From assembly GCA_049724395.1 (NCBI GenBank), contig JAUGWO010000140.1:62001-126000 (forward strand): a stretch of 64,000 nt of DNA. Reading direction: 5' to 3'. The position numbers were made by a program, and so were the translations under genes. Positions 360 through 61,434 of the stretch are shown in pieces. A model generated the notes under the pieces. The model saw only the letters and a program-made list of their open reading frames with translations. It had not been told where the DNA came from and made no database searches. Each line of letters starts with the position of its first letter. Position 1 is the first letter of the stretch. The stretch comes from Spongospora subterranea f. sp. subterranea (Eukaryota).

Positions 360-2595
360 ATGATCCGACTTCTCTATCAGGTCTAGGATTCGCTCACTTG
401 TTGCAGTTGTTCGATATTCATTTTGCGGGTTTCCTCGTCGAATCAGGTTAAATATGAACGAAGTGCGACACATACATTGGTGGTTGCGGGCGCGATTCCT
501 CAGCTGGGATCATGGGATATTTCTGGGGCAATTCCATTACAAGAATCAGCTCGTGATCCACAGACCTGGCATTGCCAAGTTGATGTTCCGTCCATTGATT
601 TCGAATACGCTTACGTAATGGTGGCGAAAAATCACGAAGAAGAGAGCATTTGGTTTCCTAAGTAAGTCGAATATTTGATTTATCCTTTGTTGTACTTTCA
701 ACCGTTTTTAATCTTTATAAGAGCAGTTCCCCGTTTGTTAATCGTATCGTGTGGTATTCAGGCAGTTGATCCGTTTACGAGGAAAGCACAGGGTACAATA
801 CCACGTGTCCTTCCGCTCCATTGATCTGTGCCTGACATTATGATCCGGTTATATAGTGTGAACCTGTAGTATGTGTAACCGACGACAGGCTGAAATACTC
901 ATCAAATAGCCTCACAAGGCGCCTTTCAGATCTTGAAAATCGTCTTAGTTTCGTCGGCGAGACCATACATCGCGACAGTAGTGATACAGTTCACACTTCG
1001 AACATGAAGGATGTACAGCAAGTTCTTGAACAACTGCGGAAGCAGTTTGTTCAGGAAGCTGGTCTGGATACTCCGCTTACTCCAGATTTACAAGTTGCAA
1101 TAGTTGCTGCAGATGATGGCGTTAAGCGTGTTCGTAGAGCATGGCTAGCCCTCCACCATGATATGCAAATATTTCGGAAGTCGGTTATTGACGAATCTCC
1201 ATTTATCACGTTGCGGAATCGCATTGAATCCCAACGCAATGCGATGACTCAGTTGGCTGCGGATTACGCCAAAGAAAGGTCGCGAAAGAAGGGCCTTAGT
1301 AGATAAAGTTCAGTCTCTTCGAGGTAAAATTCGGGTTTTGGTTCGCATTCGTCCCCAGCTGGGCTCCGAACTTGACGAAGCTTGTGCCGTCGAACCTATT
1401 GACGACACTTCATTATGCATTCGGGACAAAACATTTTCTTTTGATGGCATTCTTGGTCCTTTTTGTTCTCAAGCTGATGTATTTCATGAAGTGGAAGATG
1501 TGGTGGGTTCCTGTTTGGATGGGTTCACCTGCTCGGTTTTCAGTTATGGTAAGCGCTTACTTTTATTGTTATTCAGTTTTTTGATAATATTTTTTAGGGG
1601 CAACAAATAGCGGGAAAACGTTTTCCATGGAAGGCCCGAAAAATGATCGAGGCGTGAGCTTCAGATCATTGCGACATTTATTTGACCTGAAAGAGCAGCG
1701 TCATTCTACTTTCGATGTATCAATGCATCTAAGCGTCGTCGAAGTCTATAATGATGCTATTTACGATTTATTGGTTCCAGGCGATGATAGACCTCCATTA
1801 GAGATTGTCGCCGCCGCCGGATCTGATGATCGAGGCAGAGTGCTTAATTTGACGTGGTCCGACATTACGTCAGCTGACCAAGCTTGGGAGTCCATATCAA
1901 AAGCCACACAGTCTAGAAGTATTGGAGCGACAAGAAGCAATGAACGAAGCTCGAGATCACATCTGGCAGTTTGCGTATCGGTGCAGAGTTTAGATCGCCG
2001 CTCCGGTGCTCGCCTTTCTGGTAAGCTCGCGTTGGTCGATCTCGCAGGAAGCGAGCGTCTGAGAATATCTGGAGCTGTCGGTGATCGGTTGCGCGAATCC
2101 CAAGCCATCAACAAGTCATTGAGTTGTTTGTCAAATGTTTTCAGAGCTTTGTCAGGCGCCGGGGAGCAACATGTTCCGTTCCGCGATTCACGCTTAACAT
2201 TTCTTCTCCAAGATTATCTGAATAGCAGCGCTCGGGTCATTACCATTGTCCATGTGAGTCCTTGCAATGGCCCTTCTGCGGATGAATCGCTGTGCTCGTT
2301 AAGGTTTGCAGAGCGAGTTAAAGATGTTGACCTAGGACCAGCAAGCCGCCGAATGGAGTCTGGCAACTATGTGAAACACAAAGTAGCTTCGTCCAACAAG
2401 GATAAACTAATCGAGTCGCTTAGAGCCGAAATCGCATATCTTCGATCTCGACAACCGCATACCTCAACAGGCTCACCGGTGAGGCAATCACCCGCACCAA
2501 GAACTCCACGACATCAGCGAAAATTGGCACAATCAATCAGATCGGGTGAAGAAGAGAACAATAATTACATTCCCAACAGGAAAATACCTTTCTAA
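360..2595 (+). CDS. Kinesin-14 (C-terminal motor) with N-terminal CBM20 module; apparent 1-nt frameshift at ~1285
   Basis: Spliced MIRLLYQ|VKYER..VVAGAIPQLGSWD (CBM20-like), coiled coil, neck LRGKIRVLVRIRP, P-loop YG|ATNSGKT, switch motifs NERSSRSH and LVDLAGSER, HVPFRDSRLT; introns ~381-446, 662-721, ~792-869, 1549-1597. Confidence 0.9.
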
Positions 2596-4666: not shown

Positions 4667-5954
4667 TCAGCAATTAGCCATAAGTTTAAGAATATGATCG
4701 GCATTCATTCCGTCCTTGAAGATAACCCGTTCCGGTAGATACAACCTTTGCTTGGCGGCATCTTCTTGTGTCAATGTTCGACAACGGTCCTGCTCATTCA
4801 CGTATTCGGAACTGGCGATGCGTGTTCGATAGGACTCCTCCGTCATCGAATACCAGTCCATCGCCAATTCGGGTATGTGATCATCTAACCTGGAATCATC
4901 CTGACGATGGACGAATCGGAACGACCTATCTTTCTTGAACCACGTGACCTGACGCCGCGCAAATTGCCTGGAAGCGGCCTGAAACTGATCGACAAACAGT
5001 CGGAACCCAGGGATGCTGAACGATGGCGTGTTCCAATTCGAATCCAGATATTGACAAGCGTGCTTGTATCCGATAGCGGTGGCCGGAGGTGAACCTGGCA
5101 CCAGATACCCTTGCGACCTTAGCTCCATCACTTCGTCCAACAATCCTTGCTGCAGCATCTGTTCACATCGCAGATCGATCGCCCGATACATCGACTCGCG
5201 TCGGGAATATTGCAGGAAAATCGAACGGAAATCGATGAGGTTATTGTGTTCGGGTGGCGCGGAACGACGGCCGTCGTATTCCGGAAACGACGAACCTTGA
5301 GGAAGGGACCGTAACCGATGAACCGCCCGACATAATCGCTTCATATTCCCAGGTTGGATCGTGTTTAGATAATCCATATATTGATTTGGGTGGAATTCAG
5401 GACGGTTTCCCGACAACAAAGAGGCGATCGTGGGTATCGCTTCAGCCCATGATCGGTTGTCGCCAAACCCATTCTGGACCAGCGCCAGCGTATCTTGATC
5501 GGGTCGCAGAATGGTGGACGGCGATCGATCATGGCCATAGGTCAGGAAGCTGAGATACATGCCAGAGCCGCCACAGACGATCGGCAGTTTCTTGCGATTA
5601 TGGATGTCGAATATTGCCCGACGAGCGCGCTGGGCGAAATCTGCAGCTGTGAACGGGGCCGTGAGTGCAGTTGATGGATCAACGATATCGACCAGATGAT
5701 GTGGGATCTGATCCAACCACAGTTTGGGGGGTTTGGCGGCCCCAATATTGAAATGTCGGTAGACGGATAACGAGTCGGCCGATACGATTTCTCCATCGAA
5801 CTGCTTGGCCAGCAATGCGGCCAACGCCGATTTCCCAACTCCAGTACAACCTGAGGCCCATAGTTGGCTGAATGATGGTAAAAACAAACCACAATGCGAC
5901 TGGTTATTCACCTGATAATACTAAACATCGAGGCCTGACAGCAGCAACGGCCAT
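4667..5954 (-). CDS. miaA: tRNA dimethylallyltransferase (MiaA/IPPT family)
   Basis: MAVAAVRPRCLVLSG|CTGVGKS P-loop across one intron (~5852-5911), SADSLSVY..IGAAKP, PHHLVD, GGSGMYL, AIGYK, FARRQVTWF. Confidence 0.92.
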
Positions 5955-8308: not shown

Positions 8309-9347
8309 ATGGACGGCTATCTCGATTCGAAAATCAGCGACGATAAACTCGAATTCGATCCTCAAGTCAGGCTATCTTCTGTTTTATCCGGGGCGAAGTT
8401 CTGAACATATTTCACTGCTCAGATTGGAGTTCTGTCGCATTTGGATCTTCGCGAACATACTTTCGCTTATGACGAACGTCAACACAATCGACGAGATTCG
8501 CACTCTTCATTCACTTCAGAGCCAAATGTAGCGGATTTAAACATATGCGGAAGCGTTGGCGACGATGTCGAACAATCCACATCATGCAGGCAAGGCTCGT
8601 CATATCACTATTCACAATTTAGCCAGCTCGCGATCAATTTCTATGCAAAACCTGATTTTGACGTTGATTGAAATTTTTGATAATCGTGTTTACAGGGGCT
8701 CAGTCGTATCCAAAAGTGCTCTCGGGTCAAGAAGAAAGATTAGGAAGAATAATCGTGAAAAAAAGCGACGCCTTGAGCTGAACGACAAATTCGAGGTTCT
8801 CACAGATATGCTAAATATGTCATGTGCGAAAGGTGATCAATATACCACACATAGCTCAATTCGTATTCACCGATTTCAATGCAGCTGAAAAGTTCATTAT
8901 ATTAAGCGAGGCGATCAGTCTCATACAGAGCTTAAGAATGGAGAACAACAGCATGCAACACGAGAAGATGCAGCTACGGTCCGAGCTACAGCATATGACT
9001 GCGTTACTGCAGCAGGCGTTCCCTGGATCGGTATCCTAAATTCAAAAATATTCCAGAAACTTGTTTCAGACGAGAATGTGTGATAGGTGTTGCCAGAGTA
9101 TCAGTCATCGTTCTTGATAGGTTCCGAACCTCAAGGACAAAAGGAAACAGTGGACAGTTTCGGATTTCAGGCGATGCCTCCAACATCCAGATTTCAATAC
9201 GATTCATTTGATAACGATGCGAGTGGCCTGAGCAATGGCTCGGTTCAACCGCAGGATTTACCACTGTTTAGGCCAGGCACTGATAATCCATTCCATGGCA
9301 ACGCCAATAGTAAGAGCTCGGAAAGTCACTTCGACATATTCGTTTGA
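8309..9347 (+). CDS. bHLH-leucine zipper transcription factor
   Basis: RKNNREKKRRLELNDKFEVLTDML..|AEKFIILSEAISLIQSLRMEN followed by heptad repeats; multi-exon. Confidence 0.85.
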
Positions 9348-9485
9348 TGATGAATCACAAATGTTAATTGCTTCCGTCGGGACACAAACTCGTTCATACA
9401 CAATAAAATAACATAAAACAGATTGACTACATTCATCATTTCATATTAGTGGATCGATATATACTGGCAAAACTCAGATGGTAAC

Positions 9486-11924
9486 CTAAAAACATCCTCC
9501 TGAACACGCAGCCGCGAAAGGAGTACAATGAACATATCGGGACTGCACTGCAACTGCACACTGAGCGCGTCGACGTAGGTCTACAGATCCAACATCCATA
9601 TCGTTCTAAACAAACGAGTAAAAAAAGGAGCCAAAATCAAAATCATACATACGTAAACAATGATGAACTGAAGAGAATTGAAAAACTGCTGTAGTCGATA
9701 GCGAGACGCTACATCATTGGTCGACAATGCTGAGATAAGGTCAGGAATTGGTGATAGTATGTTGTTAATAGGAGGATTGGGAGTGCATAATTGTAGACAC
9801 TAATAGTGGGTTCAGAATGGCAAATCGCGGGGTCAAAGTGGTTTTACCTGAACAATTGCTTTATGATCATAATCCCCCGAACCGGATTGATTCATTTTAT
9901 CTATCAGGGGAATGAAATTACAGAGCATCTCAGGGATGTTGATAAGACGTGACAACGGGGCAGATGACCCATCTAGATTCGCATAGAAAGCGATGAGATT
10001 CGATAGCGAAAAAAAATTGACACCAGCGAACCTGAGTGATAAATTATAGGGCACACAAACGCAGAGTATGGCGATATATTCAGTGGATAACGGGGACAAC
10101 CAAGAATGGAAAATAACGGTTCAAGTACTAATGTTGGAGGTCAGACAGGGAGACACTTTTCAGCTGAAATCAGCACCTCGGATAATGCTGATGGGGAAAA
10201 AATCCATCCGGCGAGCCCCTAATAAAACACAGTTGAAATTTGAATGACGAGAAACTCGAGGTGTTATGACCAATATGATGACATATGTGGTCAATTAGGC
10301 CAACTGGGTCTACTGATGATTCTGTATTTGGTCCCTTATCAAGCTTAGACTCTAATGCCAGCAACCGTTTGCTGGACCGGACTGGCGATAAGAAGATGTA
10401 TTTGAACATGAGTCTGTCGCCATGTGATTAATTACATCATCAGCAGATCCCATGACAGTATCACCGATTAGACACCGCAAAAAAAATTATTGGCTTCAGA
10501 TCTGGATGCTCTCTGTCAAATGTCAACTTCAAGATAACTGGCAGATCCGCTATCTGCTTAGCTGCTGACATTAACGCTGTCAGATCATTTATCGCCATCT
10601 ATTGGTATATCAGCAAGCTAAAAACTGGTGCCTGAATCAGAAATACGTGTTGCTCAGATTCAACAAGGTGGTAATGCACAACAGGGAATACACGGCCTGG
10701 AAAGACAAAGATATGAAGACCAGCGAAAGGGCAACAGCTGCGATCCCACCTTTCAAAAAACAAGACTGATCCACGGTGGCTAAATCCCGAAGACGGTCAT
10801 AAGGAAGTTCTACTAGTAGCAGACATTGACGCGAGACATTCAGGATATGGTGAACTAATGAGTTGAATTGGACCACATGAGACAATGAAGGAAGCGAACC
10901 TAATTGTACTATGAACAACGAAGATGGAGTAAACTAGCATATACATTACCTCCTTGAACGTTAATCATATATGAAAAATCACCAGAATACAAGGCATTGA
11001 ACTTATGAAGTGAGGCATCGATAGAGGGGATAGACATAAATCGTTTCTCAGAGTACAACTATATATTGCGGATCTCAGATAAAAGGCATGATATGAATAT
11101 GCCGTATTACCTGTAACTGCATAATTATTGGGCGATGTTCTTTATGAGCCCGAACGAAATCGTCAATATCGGCATCTAACCGGGGCTGTTTGGATGCAAA
11201 CCCCATAGCATTGCTGAAAAAAGAGGCATCCCGACAGTAGACAATCGATTTGACGCCATGTGTAGGGCATCTCCTCTCTAAATATACACATCCATCACGC
11301 TCAATAACCTATCATCCCGTCAGGGATCAATGGACGCGATGTCAAATTCTTCATACAGCTGCATCGACAGGGTCGAATCCGCGTCGCTCAATCAAAGAGC
11401 ATGATACACATAGCGTCTTCGTCGAATAAATAACACGTTCCGTAGCCCTTCCTGTATCAGCTGATCTCTTCACGCCAGACTCAGTATTGATGACCCGCTG
11501 TTGGCAAGATGCACAGCACTATAAAGAACAAAACATTAAATTTGAGATGAAAGGTCAAAATTTTGAAATACCCGCTGTAAATCGATATCGGGTGCGTTTG
11601 GATCTAACGACATACGCTTATTGGAACAGGGATCACAAAATACTCGACCACAGAACCGGCAATGACTGAGAAATTTCATGAGTACAGCTGATTCAAATTG
11701 CCGATTCATTCCACATACTGCTAGAATGTTTCAAATTATGGTCAGTTTAGATTGCTTTGCTCCATATGCATATCAATGTCGAATCAGCTGCTGCCGTTTC
11801 AGACAAAAATTGAGGTTACCTTGCGGCGGAATAATGTGAAAGATGCAGCGCATGCAAAACAGACTGGGGATTGACTATCTGGAACCCATTTGAAATCGAT
11901 AGATAGCCTGGCCGATCTGGCCAT
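9486..11924 (-). CDS. FYVE domain fused to Tes/GDGT-MAS (MJ0619)-like radical-SAM-derived protein lacking CxxxCxxC
   Basis: Spliced WVPDSQSPVCFAC..FRRK|H|HCRFCGRVFCDPCS..R|CCASC (FYVE); TKTLCVSC..VIERDGCVYLERRCPTHG; DFFPIS; DGSSAPLSRLINIPE; C-terminal FIIVYNDMDVGSVDLRRRAQCAV..TPFAAAC; more than ten short exons. Confidence 0.75.
11719..11720 (-). other. 2-nt microexon (CA) in the FYVE gene
   Basis: Minus strand reads ttctag|CA|gtatgt; joining AAG|CA|T CAT TGC CGG restores RRKHHCR. Confidence 0.8.
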
Positions 11925-12259
11925 GGCGGTCCTCAAGCTGGTTTAACTCTAGCGCGACGCTTTGTCCCGGCGATTAGGGTAGTCCGAATAGACGGAATCA
12001 CGGGGCAAGCGAGAGATAAGTCCCCGCGATCAACATCATTTACGATCGAGGTCTCCGCTCCCTAATTCTGCATTGCACTATGAACTCCATGATACGATAA
12101 TGAAGGCATCATCACACCACCACTTGATCACCTATATCATAAACGCTTCAAATAGCGATCACATTATTTGTTACGTCTGGTGTTACATCACTCATCGCCC
12201 TAACGTTCAACCCCTTTACATTAGCCATGTTTGGCTCAACATATACTTTCCGGGATTTA

Positions 12260-12930
12260 TAGAATCGATTGTTTTGCATATTCGAGCGAAACGTTTTCAG
12301 CGCATTAACGTAACAAAATGGTCTTCATCTGTTTATATGAAATGCGCTGGACACTATTCATTATTCATGTAACACAAGCCTGTCAACCAAACAGCTTCGG
12401 TAAACGTCTTTCATCACCTTCATCTAAGTAGTGATACACCGGCAATTCGGTTCTTACTTGATTGTTTTTTGGCTGGCTGCTTTGAATCATAGCACCGCAA
12501 CTACATTACTTTCATGATAGGTGATGTAAGCAGAACCGAACTCTCTCAACTTTATCCAAAGCTTTCAGTTGTTTCAGAGTGTTGGGATGGCGTATCAAAG
12601 AGCGCTCTTTCAATCGGTTGAAAATCGCTGCGGGCGATCCAGAGCAGCCCCCAGCGAACGTATCGTCGTTCTTTGAGAACCTCGATCATTTTCACCTTCT
12701 CACTGTCGAGAACTTCCTTTTCTTCTAGCGCAAACGCTCGTCAATATGACATCACTAACGCATTATTTGTGGCGAGACCACATTCTTTCGTTCGTTCGTC
12801 GATTTACATTATATTCGTCTGCAAGTTGCTTAATTGACCCCCTTTCCAATTTCCAAATCGCTTCTCATTGAAAGAATCTCGTACATTTTTTATGAGCGCT
12901 ATCTTTCAATTCGATTTTGGCAGGCAGGTT
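12260..12930 (-). pseudogene. Decayed Tc1/mariner (plant/oomycete mariner-like) transposase
   Basis: Frame-broken fragments YEILSMRSDLEIGKGSIKQLADEYNVNRRTNERMW (HTH), RTTIRSL, IRHPNTLKQLKALDKVERVRFCL and I*TDEDHF, in the order expected for mariner transposases. Confidence 0.65.
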
Positions 12931-13141: not shown

Positions 13142-15164
13142 TTAATCGGATAGTTTATTCGGTTGAATCTGGTTCTCGATTATGGCCATGAACTTTGCTG
13201 GGACCCATCCTTTCTGGCTGGACTGATTTTGAGCCAACCACCAACCACTGCTGGCCGGCCGCTTTAATATCGCTATACAGGGGGTGGGCATTCTTAAGTG
13301 GGCTATTGACATATTATTTACTGACCTAGTATTTCATCAATTGCACACGGTAAACAATCAGGTTTGTCACTTTTAAACTCATATTGGCACCGAACGAATA
13401 TTATCCCATCAGTGTCAGTATATTTCTGGGTCGTCGCCACCTAGAATCACTCTTCAAAATAGTATCCTTCATGCAAATAATTGTCCAACCTCTTTATCTG
13501 GTGTTGCCGATCTGTTCAATGTCTTATTCATTTGTATCGGTTGTCTGGCCACTGGATTTCCATCATCCAGACTTATTTGGGTGCCTCGTGCCGGTGCTGT
13601 CCGCTCAAATCTCGTATCATCTGGGGGTTGCCTCTCCAAAACAGATGTTGATGGTGCATCAGCCGACCGTTGTACAATCATCCTTTGATGCGTCTGCCTT
13701 ACACTAGGCGTCCTAGAGAAACATCAGTAATCCACTATTTATTCATATTCGACGTTGATACAGGTACTTTTTTTCAACAATAGATGAAGCTGTCCGCTTC
13801 TGATCTTGAAATGAAGGAGATGGCGTTTTTCTAAAAATTGTAGCTTGATCATCCAGCAATATGTCTGACAATGTCCTTACTTGATATCTGATTTTCTGCT
13901 TTGACCCAGCGGAAACCCCTGATCCCTCGAGGTTTTCGATTGCTCGTTAGATGGTGATGCTGTTGCTGAATACCTGTACCCGGGCATCTGTCAAATACCA
14001 TATTAGATACGGCCATCGGTTTACTTTTGAGGTATATCATCAGCGGCGTCTTCCTCTACGATTTCCAGCGATCCAGGTGTGATTATTACTTCGGGATATA
14101 GAAAATCGGCATTAAATACCCCCCTAGCAACCTACATTGAGATGAAATTTACAAGCGATATGTTGCAATACCAATGCTCCCGAAATATTGGCCTTCCGCG
14201 ACAGATGAATGTGAAGTCCATGTTCTTCAGCTTTGGTGCTGTTTTCAGCAATCTGTACTGAACAGTTAAATGCCATTCAAGACAGTTGGATTGGCATATG
14301 CACCTTTCGTGGATCTCCTCTAATGTTGTTTGACCTACTACGTTTAAAGTAGCGATGGGTTTATCGTTGCTTTCGGACCATCTAACTGAAATTAGTTTCA
14401 GTTTTGTTGCTGATACCGTATTGTCGATATCGTCGACGTGCAGCCGTGGATTGGTGACCGCGAACGGCGATACTGGCCCTTCATCTAAACATTTGGGGTG
14501 AACAACGGCAGAATCGAATTGAGATGAGAATACCGAGGACTGCCCCCGCTGCAATATGATAACGGCATTCATGGCATACACGAGCTGGATTTTTCTTCAT
14601 TTTCTTCAGAAACAGTGGTGGAACGTCCATTTTGGTTGTGCAATCATTATCAAACATTTCGCCGCAAGTTCGGCAATTATGGGTCTTTCCATCGGCCAAA
14701 GGTTCATGGCATAACTATTTCGAAATTCTGTCGATACCAATAGCATATCCAATAATTAGCTTCTTTTGGCTTACTTTGCAAGTATTATAAGATCCAGGTT
14801 TAGCCCAAATTGGTGGATAAATCCTCATTACGCCAGATTTGTCATAACTCGACACCATTTGCGGTTTCAGCGGTGGTTCGTTTTTGATGAATTTGGAGCG
14901 GCGTTCAAGGCATTGGTCGCGACAACCGAAGCACACTCGATCAGGGCCGTCCTTATCCTTGCGCTTAAACTGGGAGTTGACAAGATACTTGGCTGTGCAC
15001 ATCGAGCAGAACATGTGACCGCATAATCGGCAATTATGCTGATGGGCGTAGGTGAACTTTTGATTGCAGTGATAGCAAGAACTATACGCCTTCTTATCGT
15101 CCCATTCAGGGGCTGATAAATGCCCCATCCATCCCAGAATAAGCTTATTCGGATGATCTTGCAT
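13142..15164 (-). CDS. Protein with two atypical FYVE domains, a ubiquitin-like fold and a C-terminal SH3
   Basis: WDDKKAYSSCYHC..HNCRLCGHMFCSMC..RVCFGC; second unit W..HNCRTCGEMFDNDC..RVCHEC; QTTLEEIHE..FTFICRGRPI; VRCQYEFKSD..GWWLAQNQSSQKGWVPAKFM. Confidence 0.8.
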
Positions 15165-15891
15165 GCCAAAATTCCTCAAAATTACACCACCAGGAAATGA
15201 TACATAGGAACTAAAAAACAATAAGGAACGATTGCGAGTCAAAATATCTGGTTGATTGCGTGCAATGTACTCATCGACCTTAAAAAACAAAAACCAACCC
15301 GCGTAACAAGTGCAGATAAAGTCTGTATTCGTCAGGTACACATATCATTACCAGTGGATTGGTTAGTCAAAAACCAACAATTAAATACTATATTAGCGTA
15401 AATCATTCGCAAAAACGACCTCCTCTTTTGTCAAGAATTTTGCGGGAGGACTCGAATGGGCTTGGTGAAAAAAAAAACATATCAAAGAGGTTATCCTAGG
15501 ATCAGGTCTTGAACAGATCCTATTGGTTTTTTATATTTGGCGTTAACTGATGCGGAAGATTCTGGTTGCGAAACCGAATGTCACGTCCAATTCTCGCAAG
15601 TCGAAAAGCTTTTTTGGCTAGCTGCCATCTCAGGTAAACTAGTCAGATGGCGAGAACGGTTCGATATTGATCTCAACCCGCTGGCGAGCCGACCATCCCT
15701 GAGCAATGCGATCATCATAAGGATAACCGCGTTGACTGGATCAAAGCTTGAATCGGTTACCAACGGAACCTGTGTGATATCGGCTTTCTTAAAATCACGT
15801 CAGCCGGTCACCATCGATTACAAACATAGATCGGACTAAGTAGATTAATCTAAATATTCTGGTTTGGAAATTTGCCCCTGGAAACCGATGA

Positions 15892-19768: not shown

Positions 19769-21750
19769 GAGAACTGCCGCCCTGATCATTTGGGTTGGCA
19801 TACCCTTGACGGATACGTCAATGCTGTTATGGATCTTTAGAGACTGCAGCATATCCTGGGGCGGTATCCTCCTGAATTTCCGATACCGGCACGCCCTCCG
19901 AGTATCAAAGAATGTCTCAAAAGCTCAAAAAAAGACGTCATGGATCGTGAAAACGCAATGATTTTAGATCGTGGAATTGGGACTTTGGCCGATGAAATTT
20001 CCGCCCATGAGTTTGGCAAACTCGCCAAGCATTATTGGGAATTGGACAGCGAGGAGGGTCTGAAACAGCGGACAGATTATCTGTTATCTTTCGCTCTGAC
20101 GTGCCAGGAGCGACAATCTTCGATGACTCAAGTTATCGGAGATTGGACATAAATTCTTCCCCGGCGAAGGTGTCAGTGGCGCTCATCTTCTGCGTACTGT
20201 GTGGCGAAGGTCGAAGAAAAACCAGTTTGGAAAAGTGCAACAGAATGCGTTGATGCGTCATTCATCAGTGAGTTTGTGCCCTTTCGGAAGCTTGTCTTTG
20301 TATTTCTTCTTTCGATTTCAAGTTCGGGGCGATCCTTGGCCTGATCTTTCTGGAGCAAGCCGTTGCTACAACCTATTCGTTTTGCCGAATGGTATCCATT
20401 CAGATAAGCCGATGACATACACCAAACGGTATGAAGCCATCAAGGCCGCTCAAGCTTCGCTCGGTCTGGCCATCACAACGAAAACGCAGATGGGTCGAAA
20501 GGGCGGCGCGTCCATGGGCGAAAATTTGGGTGCAAGTGAAGCCTCTGTTGACAAGAATGGCCACTGGCAAGTACGTTCGCGTGGCGGAGCCTACACAAAC
20601 AACGTCATCCCATGGGAATGCGTTCGGGTTTTGGCAGGGTTCTCTGCCGATCCTAAACAGTATTACCTGCCACGAGCTCTGTTGGACCCGCCGGAACATT
20701 TTCGAAAGTTGGTGTTTCCCGGTGAGTTGCATCGTTGTTATCGTCCGGCGTTAGAAAGACGGAGATTGCAGGACAAAGCTTTCTCAGCTTGCTAGATCAC
20801 ATGCGAACAGTCATCCTACAAGATTCTGCTATTCTAATAGCTGATGAGGATCATTCATCTCATGCAATATGGCAACATCCGATATTCTCTTCAGAGGCGT
20901 TCACGACCTTTGCTGCTGAGCTGTCCGGCAAGATCTCTTCCACCGTAACCCCGTCGACGATCGAAGTCTTGCGAGCGTTGCCAGCCGTCGGCAGTCATCT
21001 ATGCGAGCTGGTTCATGCGAGCGCTGTTCATTCGCGATCAATATCTTGTCTTGACCAGAAGTTCGACCAGAAGATCCAGCAAGTGAACGAGGACGTGAAC
21101 AAAAATTTGCTAATGATCCGCAACGAATGTCTAAAGTGATGGCGTCCACTTTAACTGGACTGGGAAATTGTATGTCGACACAGGTATGGGCGGATCAACT
21201 GCATGATTTCTGAAAACCATACTAAGAGAAGTATTGATGGTAACCACAGGTTGGATCGGCTGCGAGCGCAGATGCTGTCGCTGTCGCGAGTCGTCCTTCC
21301 GAATCGCTTCATTTTGACATGAATGGCAATGCCGATTATATCATCGAGCCGGCTGTCATTGTTCCTGACCCGGCTGTTGTTGTCCCGTTCCGAATGAACA
21401 GATCTGTGACGACGGTGCACGATGCATGGAAGGAATGGAAATACGGCGGTATTTCCATGGACAACGTCGTTGTACCGCCGATGGAAGAGCTGGAATCGCG
21501 TCCTGGCAAGAAGTGGCGAGGTGCCAAGAGCTCTGCGGAAGGGAAGTTTTTTTCTAGACGAAAACCTCTATTTGATGCTGTTGACGACTTGATCAAGGAG
21601 GGATTTAGCGAATCCGACGCGTTGAAGTTGCTCGACGACCTATGCGTTGCCAAATGTCATACGCTTCGGAAGCTTTGCGATCAGATTGCTATACGCTACG
21701 GCATCTGGGACAGAGCTCGTTGCTTTTCTAGTAGCCTTACAGCAATATAA
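19464..21750 (+). mobile_element. Decayed CryptonF tyrosine-recombinase transposon (Ndc10-like YR domain plus GCR1_C)
   Basis: KQKEFLDW..INESKFLLF, LDGYVNAVMDL, DRGIGTL, KNQFGK..ALMRH..CPFGSLSLYFFFRF, KTQMGRKGGA, YYLPRA..PP; C-terminal MNRSVTTVHDAWKEWKYG..KKWR..KFFSRRK; several stops and frameshifts. Confidence 0.85.
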
Positions 21751-23387: not shown

Positions 23388-23958
23388 AAGCTTTCGTGAA
23401 AACGCTTCCTTTCACAGATCCTTCAGAAGCCAACAATGAACTTGCATTTCTGATCGACCTGGAAAAGAAAACGCCAGCAAATTTGGCAAGAGAATGATAT
23501 TGCAGAAGGCAAGTTGTTTTTTGACATGTGTAGGACAAACCGAAAGATTGCTTCATGGTCCTGTGCAAGGGGGCTCGCGTCCAGGCCGGGCTCCAAACGC
23601 AGATCGTGATCACGAAGGCGGACATCGACGAATCTTTGAGGAGAAACTGAACGCTATCATGACTGCATGCATTATTCTTCACAATATGAGAGTCGAAGAC
23701 GAAAGGGGAAATGAAGAATCTGGTTTAGATTGCGATTACGATATCGGTGCTGCAGGAACTCGCAATCGCGTTCGTCAGCATCAACAAGAACAGCCTGACT
23801 TGATTACCATTGAAGAGCCTACAGATATTGAACTTTACCCTACGTCGTTAACCGCCATAATCAGTTCAATGCACGAAGCTCGCGACAAAACGACATATTT
23901 TCAAAGGCAATCAGATATCAGTTCAATATCTGTACGCTCTTCAATGGTAATCAAGTAG
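23388..23958 (+). pseudogene. PIF/Harbinger transposase C-terminal remnant
   Basis: AFVKTLPFTDP and EKLNAIMTACIILHNMRVEDERG, typical of PIF/Harbinger DDE transposases; catalytic core missing or broken. Confidence 0.8.
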
Positions 23959-38521: not shown

Positions 38522-41500
38522 TCAAGAGAGCTTATCACATATTGCTTGCAGGTATTCTAGCCCGAAATACTTGCCGATTCTAGAGAATATTGATATTTTA
38601 GCGGCCCAATCCTCTGGTGTTTGCCTCAGCTGCAGTTCGCCACTACAAGGACACGTCGAACTCATATTGGTGCTAACGGTTCGACAGCATTTGGCGCATA
38701 CGGAATCCTGGATCTGGTACATGTCTGATTGCCTCGCGACGTATTTTACAAGACCGGTTTCGATGAGACGCATATCGAGCGGATTCATGCATATGGAACA
38801 CTGGAGTTGCCCATGATTGTTGAGCGGTTCTCGACACATATCAACGTCTCTGACGGTGTCGCAATACAGACAGGTCACGTCTGGCACGATATATGTTGAG
38901 CAAGGATTCTTGAACGTCGCCGCCGGACTGAATGCGCTTACTCCCAGCAACTGGAAAGCCGCCGAGCGAACCGATTCCACTTCACTATGCACAGATGACT
39001 CCTGTACAAACCCGTCAATCGATGAATTTCGGGTTAAAAGACGGCTAAACGAACCAAAGACAAAACGTGTGTGCACATCTTGACAAATTCTAGAGGTGAA
39101 CTGACAAAAGGTAGGTGCTTCCCGCGAATATTAGATGGGAAAGCCAGAGCCCTTTCCCTGTCTTCATCTGAATGCATAGCCCCATGACCGATCACATTGA
39201 TCTCATCAACCATTTCCAGTATTCTCCTCATATAGTGCGTCGACTAAAGAAGTAATCTCAAGTTAACAAAGCGAAACCACATTTTTTTGGGTTTTTTTGG
39301 GTTGCCACTTACGACTTGAGATCGAAGATAATCGTTGAACTTCTCTCGCAATGATTCAGCATTTGCCCGCTCATTAGCACGCGTTTCTGCTTCTGAAATG
39401 TCTCGCCAATGCAGATACGGCCGAATCACAAACTCTGTGATGAGCTCGATAAAATGGGCGCGCGGGATCTCGGGGAGGAACTCGGAAATGTTCCACTCGC
39501 CTTACACGTTGGTCAAAGGAAAAGTTTGGGATATAGGTATTTGAGAATACCTTCGGCAACAATATCTTCTTCGACTGGGCATCTGCTGAGATCGTCTTCG
39601 TCTGGTTTCCAAGGAATACCTGTGTAATTGGCAGGATCCATATAGAGCATCGTTAGCCAAAGGCGGTCAAACCTGCCATGAACACAGTCAACAGTCCGGT
39701 GCTGAATGAAAACAGGCAACAACTAACTTGAATGATATGTTCCTGAACATTTCTTGCTCGTTTATGCACTTGGACGCATATTTGAGGAAGGATAATGCTG
39801 TCTGAACGTCATGCCGTTTAGTGCATATTACCATCTTGTTGAACGTGCCTAAGACAATCTAGAAGGGAATGCGTTGAAAAGGCAGGATTTTGGACGTGTG
39901 AGTAAACCGAATACTTGGGATCCTAGAGATTTGAACTCTGAACAGAGTCGATTGAAAACTTTTTCCATTAGGCCGTGAAGAAGACGGTGTAAATGCGGTT
40001 CGTAAAGTAGCGACATTGCGGAAGATATCCACTATGTATCGGTGAGATGTGGTGCTCACGAAAGAGAGTTTGACCAAAACCTTATAAATATTTGAAATGA
40101 CCATGTCGGCAACAGCGTTATGGTTCAAACGAACTTCGTCGAACAGGGTGCAGGCCAGTTGACTGAGTATTGCAAATGCAGAAGAGGACTCCAAACAGTC
40201 TGACGGCTTAGGTCGAAACCGAAACCTTGGCTTAGGCGCTGCAGAAGAAAACGTACTTACTTGACTGTCATTGGAACATCTGTAAACGAACCTTCCTCTA
40301 CAGCGTCATATCGGGCTGACAGTGTTCCTTCAGCAATACTGACCATTTCGTTGATCAAAAGGGCGTTCGCCGCCATATTGCACATTTCAAACTCAATGCA
40401 GATGCCACGGTATGACCTAAGAAAGGAGAGCATTGATATTCAAATTCAATGGGTTATGGATACCGACCCTGGGGAAATTCTTTCGGGATTAACAAGAGTC
40501 TCATCATAAAGGGAATCGCATTGCGAAGGGCGTTTACTTCCTAAATCTAAGTGACAAACTGTCAAAAAAAGGAAATGAACAGGACGGAATCGATATACCT
40601 GGACAATGTGAAGGAGAGCACCAGAGAATATGGTCGTGCTGTTTAAGTAAACGAGCGAAGAAAACATCAATAATCAAAGATGCTGATCGGCTCCCCATAT
40701 TGCCGATGGGAATAAGGCTGTACGAACTGCAAGCCAGATAATCGGCCAAAACTCGCTCCATGCATAAAAACCTGATAAAAAAAGATATTCGCGTCAGGCC
40801 TAGCATCTTTGCCTGCAAAGCATTTGAACCTGGCAGTCATTATTCGACAGCACGATGTGACCCATTGCAACGTCTCGAATCGGTCGTCAGCGAGATTTGG
40901 AGGAATCTCAACAACCGGGAAGGACGACCGATGACCTAAAACGATTGACGCGGTGGCGAATACGGCTTAGCAAAACACATTGATTACCAAACTGTGTCAG
41001 ATCTCCGATAGATGGGAGCAAAACTGATGATATCTGGGTTATCAGCAGTAAATTCTCGCGATGAGATTTACAAAACGCCAGCAACCTAATTAGACCCATT
41101 AACAGAATTCGCCGCATCTATCGAATCACCGACTTTTTTTTTAGGTCCTCGGCGCCCTTGTTAATGGTTTTGACAACCGTTAACTTTGTATGAATAGTGC
41201 AGCTTGTGTCAATCCCAAGTTTCGCCGATAGAGCATCGACGAAACTTGCTAGCTCAGGTCGCTCAGTGGGATTTCCTCGGGTACTAACAATGAACACAAA
41301 TGCCTGATATACCCAACCAATGACTTCCTTATGTTGCTGATTTGACGACGATGCAATTACATGTATCGATTCGGAGTCTGGAACAAACGCGCCTAGCACA
41401 GCGCGGTCGGGATGACCAGTCGCGTAAATGAAGATCTTCCTTATGCCCGCATCGCCCATACCTGGGCAATACCGACTTTGCGTACCATCAACAAACTCCA

Positions 41501-49235: not shown

Positions 49236-52215
49236 ATGGGGAATAATCTGTCAGCCGTCCCAGCTCCTCGCTCTAGAAGGTCGTCAAGCATGTCAGAGGA
49301 ACAATCTTCCCCGAAACGACGTGTTGGTAGGACTCTTTTTAGTTCAGTTTGGCGCAACGTTTGTCAGATTCGACGGTTTCAGCATCACGACGAAGAGCGT
49401 CAGATTCTTCTTTGGACGCCTCATTCGATTGTCAAGGTTCTCGACAGAACCGAGGCGGCGGTGATGAGCAACCTATCTCGTCATTACCAATGGGAGGAAT
49501 AACCACTGAAGGTCATCGCCAAAGAAATCTATTTGCATGGTGCTCCTGGTGCTACAAAGAGTGTAATATATCCGGGTTCACTGTCAATACATCGTCGCTA
49601 ACTCTACTCCATTTTATGCAGGCTTGCATGGAAGGACGCAAAAAAATCGTCTAAGAAGATCCCTATACATGTGCCTTAACTGTGTAAGGTAATCCATAGG
49701 CCAAGGGCAATTTTTCGTAATGTTTTGCGGTAATGATAGTGTTCGCAGGAGGACCCTACCTTGCAGGTGGTGCCAACAAGGTATGGCACGTGGACATCGA
49801 GATTACGACGATATGTTATGCGCCAAATGTGATGGTACAATTATTGCATGGGGCTCAGTTCCGTCGACAATTCGTACTGTGGGATGGTGCTCGTGGTGCT
49901 ATGACCTCACCTCTCATGATATTCGCATGACCAACGTTGTCCGACGTAATACCTATATGTGTGAGGCATGTGGTGGTAGGACCGCTCTCTGCATATCTTG
50001 TAAAAAAGCCTTCACGCGATGCAATTCGTTCTACGATGATTACCTATGTGCATTGTGTCAAGGAATGATGACTTCATGGAATGATGTCGACACCAATCGC
50101 AAAAAGAGTCTGGCTGAAGGTCTCACAATTCTTGATCACGACGATCCATATCAGTCTATTTATCCGTTGAGGAGGGGCCAATATGTCAAAGCTCTCGTCG
50201 ATGCCAAATGTTTTTATGAATCTCTCCTGGAAACTTTGAATGCCGCAACAGAATCCGTCTTCATGTCGTTTTGGCATCTGAATCCCAAAATATACCTTCG
50301 GAGAAATCCAGGAACCGAGCCCGATATCTCTGATCGATTTGATTCGGTCCTCAAAGCCAAAGCCAATCAAGGAGTAAAATTCTACATTATCCTTTGGAAA
50401 GAAAATTTGACCGCTGTCGTCAACAATTTTAGTGAAGAAGTGGCTAACGAGTTAGAAGGTTTGCACTCCAATATCTTTGTTGTCCGTCATGGTCCGCCAA
50501 ATCCATTATTGACATATTATTGTCATCATCAGGTATGTTAAATACACATTTTATGTTGATGCCATGATTTCAGCAAATGTGGTTAGAAATTCGTGGTTGT
50601 CGATCAAGATATAGCGTTTGTTGGGGGATTGGATGTATGCTTAGGAAGATATGACGACCCATCTCACGTCTTAAACGACGAGGACTCACAAATTTGGAAA
50701 GGCGTCGATTACTACAATCCCCATTTGGTTAGACCTTCCTCGATCAAAAGTTTCTTCACCGACGTGATCGATCGGCAATCCGTTCCCCGGATGCCTTGGC
50801 ACGATATCGATTTTGAGGTACGATTCCAGCATCGTAGCCCTCACTCGATTGTAGCAAACAATGACGCCGTTCGTTCGATTGTAGCTGCATGGCTCGACGG
50901 CCCGGGACGTTGCCCGAAACTTCGTCGAAAGGTGGAACCATCACATTGGAAGTTCCGGCCACCGAGACCTTATTTTGACTCCACGACCACATGACGAACC
51001 TCCCATTGTAAAAAAGCATATCTCAACTGCAATTCAACAAAGTTTGAACTGCGTTGGTTTAGCAATCTGTAAAATCTGGAACCTGCATTTGTCAAGTTAT
51101 CCGTTCGATGGGACAATGGAGTGGAGCTTCTAGGCTTGATCGATCGATCTGTATGTCTGGCTAATTCTGCCACTGCTTTAGTGATCAACGCTGAAATTGT
51201 GTAGATGGCGCTTATATCCACGCTGTCATGTCAGCTCAAAAATATATTTACCTGGAAAATCAATATCTGAGTTCAAGTGTCGCCGGAGACGGCGTCGAGA
51301 ACATTGTCGCTCAAAGAATCATCGATCGACTGAAGGAGAAGATCTTCAGCCAAAGAGACTTTCAGGGTCATCATCATACTACCCCAACCAGAAGAGACCG
51401 GAGATAGCGCCATGGAGTTGCTACGCTGGCAATATCAAACCATCAACCGAGGCGGAACCTCAATGGTTGAGCAACTCGCGCGTGCGTTTCCCGATGTTGA
51501 TCTCGAGCAATATCTGTCGTTCTTTTTTCTACGGCAACACGGGTTCTTGTGCGGTCGCCCGGTTACAGAAAAAGTCTTCACACATAGCAAAATTTTACTG
51601 GTCGATGATCGCATCGCTCTTGTTTCGTCAGCCAATTTCAACGATCGGAGCCTGCTTGGTGATCGCGATAGTGAGATTGGCGTCACTGTCGAAGATGAAG
51701 ATTCATTGCAGATACCGATGGACGGCGCGTCGTTTTCTGTTGGGCGATTTCCGCATGAGCTGCGTCTGCAACTTTGGGCGGAGCATCTTGGCTTATCTGG
51801 ATCTGATACCGAACGAATCATTGATCCGATATGCGATTCCGTGTATAACGGCATCTGGATGAAAACTGCTCGAGATAATACTCGAATCTTAGAACAAGTG
51901 TTTCCTAGTAAGGCCGTTTTCCGCCACTTCAGCACTCAAATTTACCATTTTTGTGCTTCTAGGTATTCCCCAAAATCATCATACTACAATGAAGGTGAGC
52001 TCACATGCGCTTGTTCAATATCATCGTTTGAACAAGCTCTATACTAGATATTCAAAAAGGAGCATGGGCTAGAAGTTCCAGCAGTAGCCGTCACCGATGG
52101 AAAAGAGCTATCTGGAGTCCATGGGACACTGACAATGCATCCAATAGGGTTCCTGCTCGATGAAGAGATCTCTACGGTTTTATCATTAGTCCTTGGCGAG
52201 AATGTATCGCAGTAG
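49236..52215 (+). CDS. Phospholipase D with N-terminal tandem Cys-rich module and putative N-myristoylation
   Basis: HKD1 HHQ|KFVVVD..AFVGGLD, PRMPWHD, IYLENQY, HKD2 HSKILLVDD..SANFNDRS..DSE; starts MGNNLS. Confidence 0.92.
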
Positions 52216-59728: not shown

Positions 59729-61434
59729 TTAGCTAGGGATCGTGACATTTCGCTCTGTAGATGACTCCATCGATGTGGTTGATGTTTTCGGGCCTTCGTT
59801 CTGCGCGCCATGGCCCATGCCGTTCTTCTTCAGTTTCGAGCACAACGCCCAAGCCGGAATCCCACTCAGTATAGCAAGAATGCCCAGCAGAGGAGGCAGG
59901 TAATAAGGGAACGTGGCGATGTGGTGGGACACGAATGGGAATACGGAGAGGAAAATGCAGGTGACAATGAATATGAACGGCAAAGGCAACCAGACAGAGA
60001 AAGGACGGTTTCGGTTAGGTTGTTGGATGCGCAGGAGGAGCAATCCTACAACTGCTAAACCTGATGATCAAGCACAACATTGATTTCCATTCCTCGCAGT
60101 TCGAACTCAACTTTCGCTTACCGTAGAATACCCATTGAGGATACCCTACCAACTCGAGTAGGAAATCAAACGCGTCTTCAGAGGGGGGTATTGCGATTAA
60201 GATCATAGACAGAGCCCAATTTAATATGAAGGCTCTGGTAGGAGTCTTAAAGTAAGGATGTACAGCACTTAAATATTCCGATTTTGGAATAATGCCTGCC
60301 TTTGCCGAAGCCAATATTATCCGACTAGCACTGAAAGCCATTGCTGAAACTGCCCCAAGTGCCGACATTGCAAGTAATACTGGGAAAATCTTGGAGCCTA
60401 CAAAATCTCCAAACACGGCAATGAAAAACTGTCCAGCGAGAAGCTCTGACGACGAAACTATCTTATCCAACGGTACGACGGTAAAATAGGCGAAATTCGC
60501 TGCCAGAAAGAGTATGGTGACTAAACCAACGCCCATTGCTGACGCTCTTGGTAAACATTTTTCCGGGTCCTTGAGCTCTGCAACCGAGTAATTAAGGTTG
60601 TTCCAGCCATCGTACGCAAAAAATACTCGGAAGCACGCGCTTGCGTAGCTTCCAGGGCGATTGTCGGTTCCAGCAAACGGATGGGCAAAATTGTTTGGCC
60701 TGTTATCGATCTTTACGAGTTGAACAGCAATCAGCACTCCAGTCAATGCGATTATCGTAACAACAGCGATTTTCAGAACTGTGATGACATCGTGGATGAG
60801 AATAGCGATACGAGTATTGCTGATATTGATGGCAGTAATTAAAGAAATTGCTGCCATGGCAATTAATCGCTGTTGCACTACATTTTGGTTAAGGCCGCTA
60901 TTGAAAGGGAACATGATATACTTCGAAACCACAATACAATCGGCAGCTTCCGATCCTGGCCGGATGCACAAAATCATAACCCAACAAAAAAGGAACGGCA
61001 TCAAATCCCGAGGGCGGCTGTATGAAGTCTGGAGGTAAACTTGTTCGCCGCCGCTTTCAGGCATCATTGTCCCTAATTCTATATATGAACTGCTCCAAAT
61101 TCAACCTCACAGCAATTGCGACGAGAAGGTGTTGCTTACAATGTTCCACAAAATGTAATGATCCCTCCTACGGCCCATATTACCATCGCCATTCCTGGTG
61201 AACCGACAGACATCAGTACTTTCCCTGGGGTCGAAAATATTCCAGATCCTGATCAATTTATTTAGGCTTAAGCGGTGACAACTAAATCAGATAGATGGAA
61301 CTTTGATTACCTATCATCAGCCCTACAACTAGGCACATTCCAGAGAATGTGTCAAAGGTCTTTCTCAGCGGAATATCGACAGTATCATGGCCTAAAGGCA
61401 ATCGTGTTCGTCGCCGAGAACAACGCATCTTCAT
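59729..61434 (-). CDS. APC-superfamily amino-acid permease (LAT / Mup1-like)
   Basis: GLMIG|SGIFSTPG, ELGTMMPESGGEQVYL, FAYDGWNNLNY, RPFSVWL; about 12 TM segments. Confidence 0.92.

What the first reader, a model, noticed from the sequence alone, without database searches (positions are those of the whole stretch)
9486..11924. FYVE domain fused to an apparently catalytically dead homologue of the tetraether-lipid synthase (Tes/GDGT-MAS, MJ0619) radical-SAM family
Seen: hand splicing gives an intron-rich, stop-free protein. It has an N-terminal FYVE domain, then TKTLCVSC..VDAAVIERDGCVYLERRCPTHG, later DFFPIS..SPYSAF..DGSSAPLSRLINIPE, and ends FIIVYNDMDVGSVDLRRRAQCAV..TPFAAACSGGCF. Known: MJ0619/Tes-type enzymes begin with a rubredoxin-like CxxC..CPxHG metal site (T.SLCP.C...VYL.K.CP.HG), carry CxxxCxxC, DFxP and HPxC motifs, and end FMD..NFD..R..RC.I...PFC. 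FYVE domains bind PI3P on endosomes. All these landmarks appear collinearly here. The four N-terminal metal ligands are intact, but CxxxCxxC is absent (PIIMQLQLYSEKRF at that position) and HPxC reads SPYS. Inference: a prokaryote-derived lipid-handling radical-SAM scaffold domesticated as an endosomal pseudoenzyme, lipid sensor or lipid carrier. The homology call is from recalled motifs.
Basis: partly seen in the sequence, partly recalled or inferred. Interest (0 to 1): 0.88.

Follow-up and report, generated by a model that had tools for sequence, protein, structure and literature searches.

The report
Archaeal lipid enzyme relic in protists
A spliced, transcribed protist gene joins a FYVE finger (a module known to bind endosome lipids) to a predicted whole copy of the archaeal tetraether-lipid synthase fold that has lost its radical-chemistry loop, and it belongs to a wide, apparently undescribed protist family that likely binds or moves lipids on endosomes instead of making tetraether lipids.

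Summary
Confirmed, and wider than reported. The minus-strand gene (15 exons, 558 codons, Spongospora subterranea by its matching protein record) is spliced as one transcript; a 2-nt micro-exon completes a canonical FYVE finger. The rest is a full-length Tes/GDGT-MAS homologue (profile match to 7TOL E 7.5e-20; model vs 7TOM Z 27.1 over 419 residues). Both CxxxCxxC motifs of Tes are gone: the radical-SAM loop aligns to a gap, and no hidden exon supplies it. It is not a lineage oddity: 160 protein clusters match, with named members in seven eukaryotic groups; 0 of 151 have CxxxCxxC; of 90 scanned, 18 carry FYVE and 7 carry PX, both PI3P modules. The family keeps the Cys3His rubredoxin site (75 of 80) and mostly a Cys3His version of the C-terminal cluster site (74 of 86), which this gene has partly lost. 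Best reading: a non-radical lipid-binding protein of PI3P-positive endosomes or phagosomes (0.5); a metal-dependent new enzyme is the main rival. A zinc-ribbon insertion shared with a third of Asgard Tes hints at archaeal-host inheritance, but trees cannot place the origin. Lipid binding, localisation and metals are untested.

The parts
9486..11924 (-). Whole gene, 15 exons, 558 codons (557 in the RNA seen): exons 11924-11820, 11720-11719, 11665-11572, 11518-11357, 11308-11111, 11058-10950, 10899-10750, 10696-10647, 10598-10465, 10413-10271, 10218-10177, 10127-10032, 9972-9848, 9799-9653, 9605-9486
   Evidence: RNA joints; stop-free translation, all introns GT..AG; match to P0001
11504..11888 (-). 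FYVE zinc finger (residues 13-72): WxxD, basic HHCR patch, closing R-x-CxxC, Zn ligands in place
   Evidence: PF01363 on exon 1 E 9.5e-5 and exon 3 E 1.5e-7; aligns motif for motif with 12 homologous FYVE domains
11719..11720 (-). 2-nt micro-exon that keeps the frame and completes the PI3P-binding basic motif; the P0001 model starts downstream of it and lacks the FYVE core
   Evidence: two letters between joint 11665/11820 in X1, X15, X3, X17; frame stops at codon 46 without it
11231..11431 (-). Rubredoxin-like zinc ribbon of Tes type; ligands Cys104, Cys107, Cys135, His138 intact; spacer of 27 residues against 20 in canonical Tes
   Evidence: PF23545 E 1.3e-9 over cut-off; C-C-C-H in 75 of 80 family members covering the site; spacer counts
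11040..11136 (-). First barrel strand and the shortened loop where the radical-SAM CxxxCxxC of Tes would be (15-residue gap); intron 5 (11059-11110) holds no hidden exon
   Evidence: profile-profile alignment, ligand mapping, RNA joint 11058/11111, six-frame scan
10359..11137 (-). Partial TIM barrel of radical-SAM type; GGE glutamate, Arg210 and Gln268 equivalents not kept; family-specific conserved Asn, Arg and Pro residues, with Arg at the Ser271 (SAM adenine loop) position in 110 of 114
   Evidence: model secondary structure, VIA-align range 40-504, column counts; the barrel alignment is the least certain part
9489..10316 (-). C-terminal domain homologous to the Tes lipid-pocket and [4Fe-4S]C domain; here Ser418 (codon 10063-10065) and Tyr519 (9653-9655) replace two of four ligands; Cys535, Cys553 and the family-specific Cys557 remain
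9525..9527 (-). One Cys codon present in the window but absent from the RNA of four runs and from P0001; allele, strain or assembly difference, not resolved
   Evidence: no DNA run was available

Best explanation
The gene makes one transcript encoding a FYVE finger fused to a predicted full-length Tes/GDGT-MAS fold that lacks the radical-SAM cluster loop, and the protein likely docks on PI3P-rich endosomes or phagosomes and likely uses the inherited lipid pockets to bind, sense or shuttle membrane lipids without radical chemistry. Shown: the transcript, the fusion, the homology, the loss of both CxxxCxxC motifs, the family's spread and its repeated FYVE or PX fusions. Inferred: PI3P binding (from canonical motifs), an open lipid pocket (from Tes, which binds two phospholipids, including E. 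coli ones), a structural role for the zinc ribbon, and a structural or regulatory role for the C-terminal metal site, which this gene and some other lineages have partly or wholly lost. A plausible setting is recovery of lipid from engulfed prey or host organelles.
For: One transcript. Fold: AlphaFold model pLDDT 86.5, Foldseek 7TOL E 9.6e-18, TM 0.63-0.66, next hit 6.5e-4, VIA-align Z 27.1, 419 aligned, rmsd 3.7, next 11.8; a full-length FYVE relative gives both 7TOL (E 1.2e-17) and EEA1/Vps27/Hrs FYVE hits. CxxxCxxC in 0 of 151 family proteins against 128 of 128 prokaryotic Tes-like proteins at the radical-SAM motif; the three Cys align to a gap. Two different PI3P modules are fused at the N-terminus: FYVE in 18 and PX in 7 of 90 scanned; all 17 FYVE rows in the tree fall in one clade (support 99), PX rows in three places. 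Hydropathy pattern of the C-terminal lipid-pocket domain follows Tes (r 0.61; shifted controls -0.19 to 0.24). GDGT-MAS co-purifies with two E. coli phospholipids, so the pockets accept ester lipids (PMC9433317, section 5). The C-site ligands are lost in different ways in Spongospora (S-Y-C-C), Plasmodiophora (C-D-C-S) and the choanoflagellate PX group while the fold, zinc ribbon and barrel arginines persist, so the function survives without that site. Phytomyxea phagocytose host organelles (PMC10953367 abstract).
Against: No lipid binding, localisation or metal content was measured, and no coordinates were available to measure the pocket. The C-site is intact (C-H-C-C) in 74 of 86 members, with a further Cys in 66 of 79, which is more conservation than a bare carrier needs. 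Many members have no FYVE or PX (65 of 90 scanned; some are truncated gene models, but P0015 and P0042 come from genomic contigs and start at the zinc ribbon). A hydropathy match is expected from the fold alone.
Confidence: 0.5

Rival explanations
1. The family is a new kind of enzyme: it dropped radical-SAM chemistry but uses the C-terminal Cys3His metal centre (Fe-S or Zn) beside the lipid pocket for Lewis-acid, redox or sulfur chemistry on endosomal or prey lipids; the phytomyxid copies are degenerate or use spare cysteines.
For: C-H-C-C in 74 of 86 members; the labile Met439 ligand of Tes is replaced by His in 90 of 106; an added terminal Cys in 80 of 84; near-invariant barrel residues Asn (95 of 101), Arg (104 of 108) and Arg at the former SAM loop (110 of 114). 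In Tes this cluster lies beside both lipid pockets and takes part in catalysis (PMC9433317 passages).
Against: The gene in hand lacks two of the four ligands, Plasmodiophora lacks two others, and the choanoflagellate PX group lacks the whole site, yet all keep the fold. Of 9 prokaryotic Tes-like proteins without Met at this position 7 have His, so His alone does not mark new chemistry.
Confidence: 0.25
2. The Tes fold serves only as a protein-protein scaffold or adaptor on PI3P membranes, with no lipid cargo.
For: Loss of every catalytic landmark; FYVE and PX proteins are often adaptors (general knowledge); a GOLD-like segment in 2 of 90 members.
Against: The whole fold, including the amphipathic helices that line the Tes lipid pocket, is kept across distant lineages.
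Confidence: 0.2
3. It is still a radical-SAM enzyme, with the SAM cluster held by non-canonical cysteines.
For: Radical-SAM barrel fold is retained; spare conserved cysteines exist near the C-terminus.
Against: The cluster loop is deleted; no column in the barrel holds Cys in even half of the rows (the richest has 21 of 56); GGE glutamate and Gln268 equivalents are not kept; no PF04055 match in P0001 or in 90 relatives at E 0.01.
Confidence: 0.03
4. The fusion or the loss of the motif is an artefact of hand splicing (two genes, a missed exon, or a decaying pseudogene).
For: The public models P0001 and P0002 lack the FYVE core; the window differs from RNA by one codon.
Against: One RNA contig joins all exons; those models begin inside the FYVE tail; 18 relatives carry the same fusion; 39% identity over 97% of the length with Plasmodiophora.
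Confidence: 0.01

Closest known systems
Tetraether synthase Tes / GDGT-MAS (MJ0619; PDB 7TOL, 7TOM; NCBIfam NF045702)
   Same: Whole fold and domain order; Cys3His rubredoxin site; C-terminal cluster domain with its three Cys in most relatives; conserved DFxP, MD and D-x-x-x-R landmarks.
   Different: No radical-SAM CxxxCxxC, no N-terminal auxiliary cluster motif, Met439 position is His (Tyr here), Tyr459 not kept, added terminal CxxC, N-terminal FYVE or PX, eukaryotic and intron-rich; 36.7 bits against a cut-off of 450.
TrsS-type radical SAM proteins (NF045646) and bacterial Tes homologues
   Same: Zinc ribbon and C-terminal domain; some have His at the Met439 position.
   Different: They keep CxxxCxxC and score lower against the eukaryotic profile (23-76 bits for the 28 full-length bacterial rows against up to 113 for archaeal Tes).
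FYVE- and PX-domain PI3P effectors (EEA1, Hrs/Vps27, sorting nexins)
   Same: Canonical FYVE motifs; fold matches EEA1, Vps27 and Hrs FYVE domains in the relative P0004.
   Different: The partner domain is a radical-SAM-derived fold; the paper searches listed in the Full report section found no such pairing.

Membership tests
Tes / GDGT-MAS | Overall fold: rubredoxin domain, partial TIM barrel, C-terminal cluster and lipid domain | tested here: met
   Predicted model: Foldseek E 9.6e-18, VIA-align Z 27.1 over 419 residues; profile-profile probability 99.8
Tes / GDGT-MAS | Rubredoxin-like C-x2-C-x20-C-x2-H site | tested here: met
   Four ligands present, spacer 27 instead of 20
Tes / GDGT-MAS | N-terminal auxiliary cluster ligands (C73, C77, C80 and His) | tested here: not met
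   Cys positions align to a gap, His not conserved
Tes / radical SAM superfamily | CxxxCxxC cluster motif after strand 1 | tested here: not met
   Absent from the protein, from six frames of the locus and from 151 of 151 family proteins
Tes / radical SAM superfamily | SAM contacts (GGE glutamate; Arg210, Gln268, Ser271 of GDGT-MAS) | tested here: not met
   Not conserved in the mapped columns; the barrel alignment is of modest confidence
Tes / GDGT-MAS | C-terminal cluster ligands (three Cys plus Met439) | tested here: not met
   This gene reads S-Y-C-C; 74 of 86 relatives read C-H-C-C. The three Cys positions are inferred from conservation and the 7TOL alignment; the passages read name only Met439
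Tes / GDGT-MAS | NCBIfam NF045702 score over cut-off | tested here: not met
   36.7 bits against 450; best relative 81.5
Tes / GDGT-MAS | Binds two lipids; forms C-C bonds between lipid tails | not testable with these tools
   Needs protein work
FYVE domain | WxxD, R(R/K)HHCR, RVC-type motif and eight Zn ligands | tested here: met
   All present, the Val of RVC is Cys; PF01363 on single exons
FYVE domain | PI3P binding and endosomal localisation | not testable with these tools
   Inferred from motifs only

The most novel reading that the evidence does not exclude
The family descends from the tetraether synthase of the Asgard archaeal host, was already present in the last eukaryotic common ancestor, lost its radical chemistry when archaeal lipids were abandoned, and was kept by phagotrophic eukaryotes as an endosomal lipid-handling protein: a surviving molecular fossil of the archaeal-to-bacterial membrane switch.
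Probability: 0.3. Interest if true: 0.93.

Novelty: new variant of a known kind. Interest (0 to 1): 0.8.

Why it matters
Tes is described as an archaeal enzyme with bacterial homologues; the papers searched name no eukaryotic relative. A Tes-derived family across seven eukaryotic groups, stripped of radical chemistry and repeatedly fitted with PI3P-binding modules, would be a rare case of a radical-SAM scaffold turned to another use, and a new candidate for lipid handling in phagosomes. If it came from the archaeal host, it makes the long-open question of what became of the archaeal lipid machinery during eukaryogenesis testable, since a dictyostelid member gives access to a genetic model. It also shows how a 2-nt micro-exon can hide a targeting domain from gene models.

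Tried and rejected
No whole genome was held for the window, so copy number and paralogues in the organism are unknown. Word-index searches found only P0001 and P0002 and, with the 56-row alignment, only P0001; the family came from the exhaustive phmmer search. Pattern scans for close relatives found none in prokaryotic genomes (P0009), plasmids or, for P0004, P0013, P0026 and alignment A3, viral contigs; one search reported one viral-collection match to P0042 but gave no locus, while the contig that encodes P0042 carries eukaryotic nuclear genes, so a viral origin was not pursued further. Profile scores do not single out Asgard: best full-length scores 112 (top 30 of 251 Asgard genomes), 106 (top 20 of 101 Thermoproteota-phylum genomes), 100 (top 10 of 81 Thermococci-phylum genomes). 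Trees failed to place the origin: the eukaryotic stem is about 3.2 changes per site; 67 of 89 placements were not rejected; joining eukaryotes with two Asgard rows (p-AU 0.69, group chosen after seeing the tree) or with five bacterial rows (p-AU 0.60) was not rejected; the tests with the 7- and 10-row Asgard groups did not finish. An IQ-TREE run on 91 family rows did not finish; the FastTree version was used. A second ESM Atlas search without radical-SAM clusters did not complete. Earlier findings of the scan gave nothing. A C-terminal prenylation signal was considered and dropped: the family ends CxxC plus one residue, not a CaaX spacing (motif rule recalled).

Full report
Observation. The finding is a minus-strand gene from ATG 11924 to the stop at 9486-9488. 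Public RNA contigs laid on 9000-12400 show 13 joints inside it; the first skips 154 nt with two letters left between, which is two introns around a 2-nt micro-exon. Seven runs were read. In X1 a single 1790-nt contig carries all 13 joints from 11970 to 9423; X15, X3 and X17 cover the gene in two contigs each (X3 and X15 have identical depths and are probably one data set); X7 shows 12 of 13 joints but not the FYVE one; X13 and X14 cover small pieces. Contigs cannot give expression level. The 15 exons give 558 codons without a stop, all 14 introns are GT..AG, and dropping the micro-exon ends the frame at codon 46. Residues 54 onward equal P0001, named CRZ03449.1 of Spongospora subterranea by its source, except for one Cys codon at 9525-9527 that is missing from the RNA of the four runs that cover it and from P0001; no DNA run was at hand to settle this.

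FYVE. Exons 1 and 3 each hit PF01363 (E 9.5e-5, 1.5e-7). The joined domain aligns motif for motif with 12 homologous FYVE domains. P0001 and the Plasmodiophora brassicae model P0002 (PBRA_002661, 39% identity) both begin inside the FYVE tail, so the public models miss the fusion; that the micro-exon is the cause in Plasmodiophora is a guess.

Homology to Tes. P0001 alone scores weakly: NF045702 E 1.9e-9, 36.7 bits against a cut-off of 450; PF23545 E 1.3e-9; 7TOL E 0.0064, the only solved-structure hit; ESM Atlas feature score 0.95 to Tes clusters. A 56-row family alignment hits 7TOL at E 7.5e-20, next hit 0.32, and 50 of its 56 members hit NF045702 at E 0.01 or better. Profile-profile comparison with 128 prokaryotic Tes-like proteins, extracted from loci, gives probability 99.8, E 1.7e-28 over 429 columns. 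The AlphaFold model (pLDDT 86.5, pTM 0.86) matches 7TOL/7TOM at Foldseek E 9.6e-18 and 5.3e-17, TM 0.63-0.66 and VIA-align Z 27.1, rmsd 3.7, 419 residues, next entry Z 11.8. A model of the full-length FYVE relative P0004 (pLDDT 88.0) matches both GDGT-MAS and the FYVE domains of EEA1, endofin, Vps27 and Hrs.

What is lost and kept. GDGT-MAS has a rubredoxin iron (C9, C12, C33, H36), an N-terminal cluster (C73, C77, C80, His), the radical-SAM cluster and a C-terminal cluster with labile Met439 beside two lipid pockets (PMC9433317, passages and section 5; PMC13459092 passages). In the family the Cys of both CxxxCxxC motifs align to gaps, the radical-SAM loop as a 15-residue deletion; 0 of 151 proteins contain the motif, against 128 of 128 prokaryotic rows at the radical-SAM position. 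The rubredoxin ligands are intact here and in 75 of 80 members that cover them. The C-terminal site reads C-H-C-C in 74 of 86 members that cover all four positions, with a further terminal Cys; Spongospora reads S-Y-C-C, Plasmodiophora C-D-C-S, and the PX group around the choanoflagellate protein lacks the site. SAM contacts are not conserved, but the barrel has its own near-invariant Asn, Arg and Pro, including Arg at the Ser271 position in 110 of 114; the barrel is the least sure part of the alignment.

The family. phmmer over 1.84 billion representatives gave 160 hits at E 0.001, 150 listed. Of 90 scanned with Pfam, 18 have FYVE (three of them under the curated cut-off) and 7 PX, none PF04055. 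Of 30 clusters looked up, 10 carried an organism name: Hemimastix, Dermamoeba, Cavenderia, Lotharella, Amorphochlora, Rhodelphis (two), Didymoeca, Ploeotia and Pterocystis; by my own knowledge these span Hemimastigophora, Amoebozoa, Rhizaria, Archaeplastida, Opisthokonta, Discoba and Haptista, and all are phagotrophs or mixotrophs. One further cluster held a 49-residue member labelled Escherichia coli, which I take for a stray fragment but did not check. The other clusters are unnamed; one, P0042, lies among eukaryotic nuclear genes. No animal, fungal or land-plant name appeared, but most hits were not looked up, so absence is not shown. In a FastTree of the 91 rows covering 300 or more profile positions, all 17 FYVE rows fall in one 29-row clade (support 99) whose named members are Rhizaria; PX rows sit in three places. 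The targeting modules thus look like repeated additions to an older core.

Origin. Prokaryotic genomes hold only canonical, cluster-bearing Tes in the loci examined; archaeal ones score higher than bacterial ones. Between the two halves of the zinc ribbon the family has 27-28 residues (44 of 55), canonical Tes 20. Asgard-phylum Tes often has 25-26: 25 of 29 in a set ranked by the eukaryotic profile and 24 of 68 in an independent PF23545 search of 71 genomes. None of 87 other archaeal proteins nor 13 from another archaeal phylum has it. Against this: the site takes independent insertions (42 residues in three bacterial proteins), Halobacteriota, Thermoplasmatota and most bacterial phyla were barely sampled, and the trees are uninformative (67 of 89 placements not rejected; bacterial sister not rejected). 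Asgard inheritance is a lead, not a result.

Mechanism. Shown: transcript, fusion, fold-level homology (predicted model), loss of radical-SAM motifs, breadth of the family. Inferred: the FYVE finger binds PI3P and brings the protein to endosomes or phagosomes; the Tes pockets, which in GDGT-MAS hold even E. coli phospholipids, still take lipid; the protein senses, extracts or shuttles lipid. Phytomyxea phagocytose host organelles (PMC10953367, abstract), which gives a setting. I put this at 0.5, a metal-dependent new enzyme at 0.25, a pure scaffold at 0.2 and residual radical-SAM activity at 0.03.

Literature. Nine searches (listings and abstract starts only) showed no paper on eukaryotic Tes homologues, and the accession search found none of the family's records. 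Passages of PMC8941075 and PMC13459092 place Tes in archaea, Asgard included, and some bacteria. Term look-ups in three Asgard-eukaryote homology papers found no mention in the main text or in the readable supplements of two (one scanned file not searched; the COG and KEGG labels used there were recalled). The supplement of bioRxiv 10.64898/2026.10.28.762692 could not be seen and may list this family under a cluster number; subscription journals are not covered.

Verdict. A real, expressed, correctly read gene; not a member of the Tes family by its defining cofactors, but derived from it; representative of an apparently undescribed, widely spread eukaryotic family. New variant of a known kind, interest 0.8.

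Noticed in passing
window 8541-9428 (+): A bHLH gene (PF00010 E 4.7e-5) ends tail to tail with this gene; RNA contigs of the two overlap by a few bases near 9423-9429, with a spliced intron at 9030-9085.
   Followed up: partly
window 10513-10569: A minor in-frame 57-nt splice inside exon 9 in run X17 (depth 4 against 13) would remove 19 residues of the barrel.
   Followed up: no
window 14484-15344 (-): A second gene with two FYVE domains lies 2.5 kb upstream.
   Followed up: no
window 4667-5920 (-): Long open frame (417 codons) with an IPP transferase domain (PF01715 E 2.6e-49); such enzymes are linked to cytokinin synthesis in plasmodiophorids (recalled).
   Followed up: no
window 20127-20795 (+) and 23440-23958 (+): Fragments matching NDC10_II (PF16787 E 8.2e-17) and Plant_tran (PF04827 E 8.9e-6), probably mobile-element derived.
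   Followed up: no
window 1588-2595, 38522-39130, 51334-52047, 60015-61100: Kinesin, DNA polymerase epsilon zinc fingers, phospholipase D motif and amino-acid permease exons.
   Followed up: no
L162, L163, L168: Bacterial Tes-like proteins with a single CxxxCxxC and a 42-residue zinc-ribbon spacer, a distinct subfamily.
   Followed up: no
L205:1-17425: The family member P0042 sits in an intron-poor eukaryotic contig beside PI3/PI4-kinase, WASH and OSCA-like genes; probably coincidence.
   Followed up: partly
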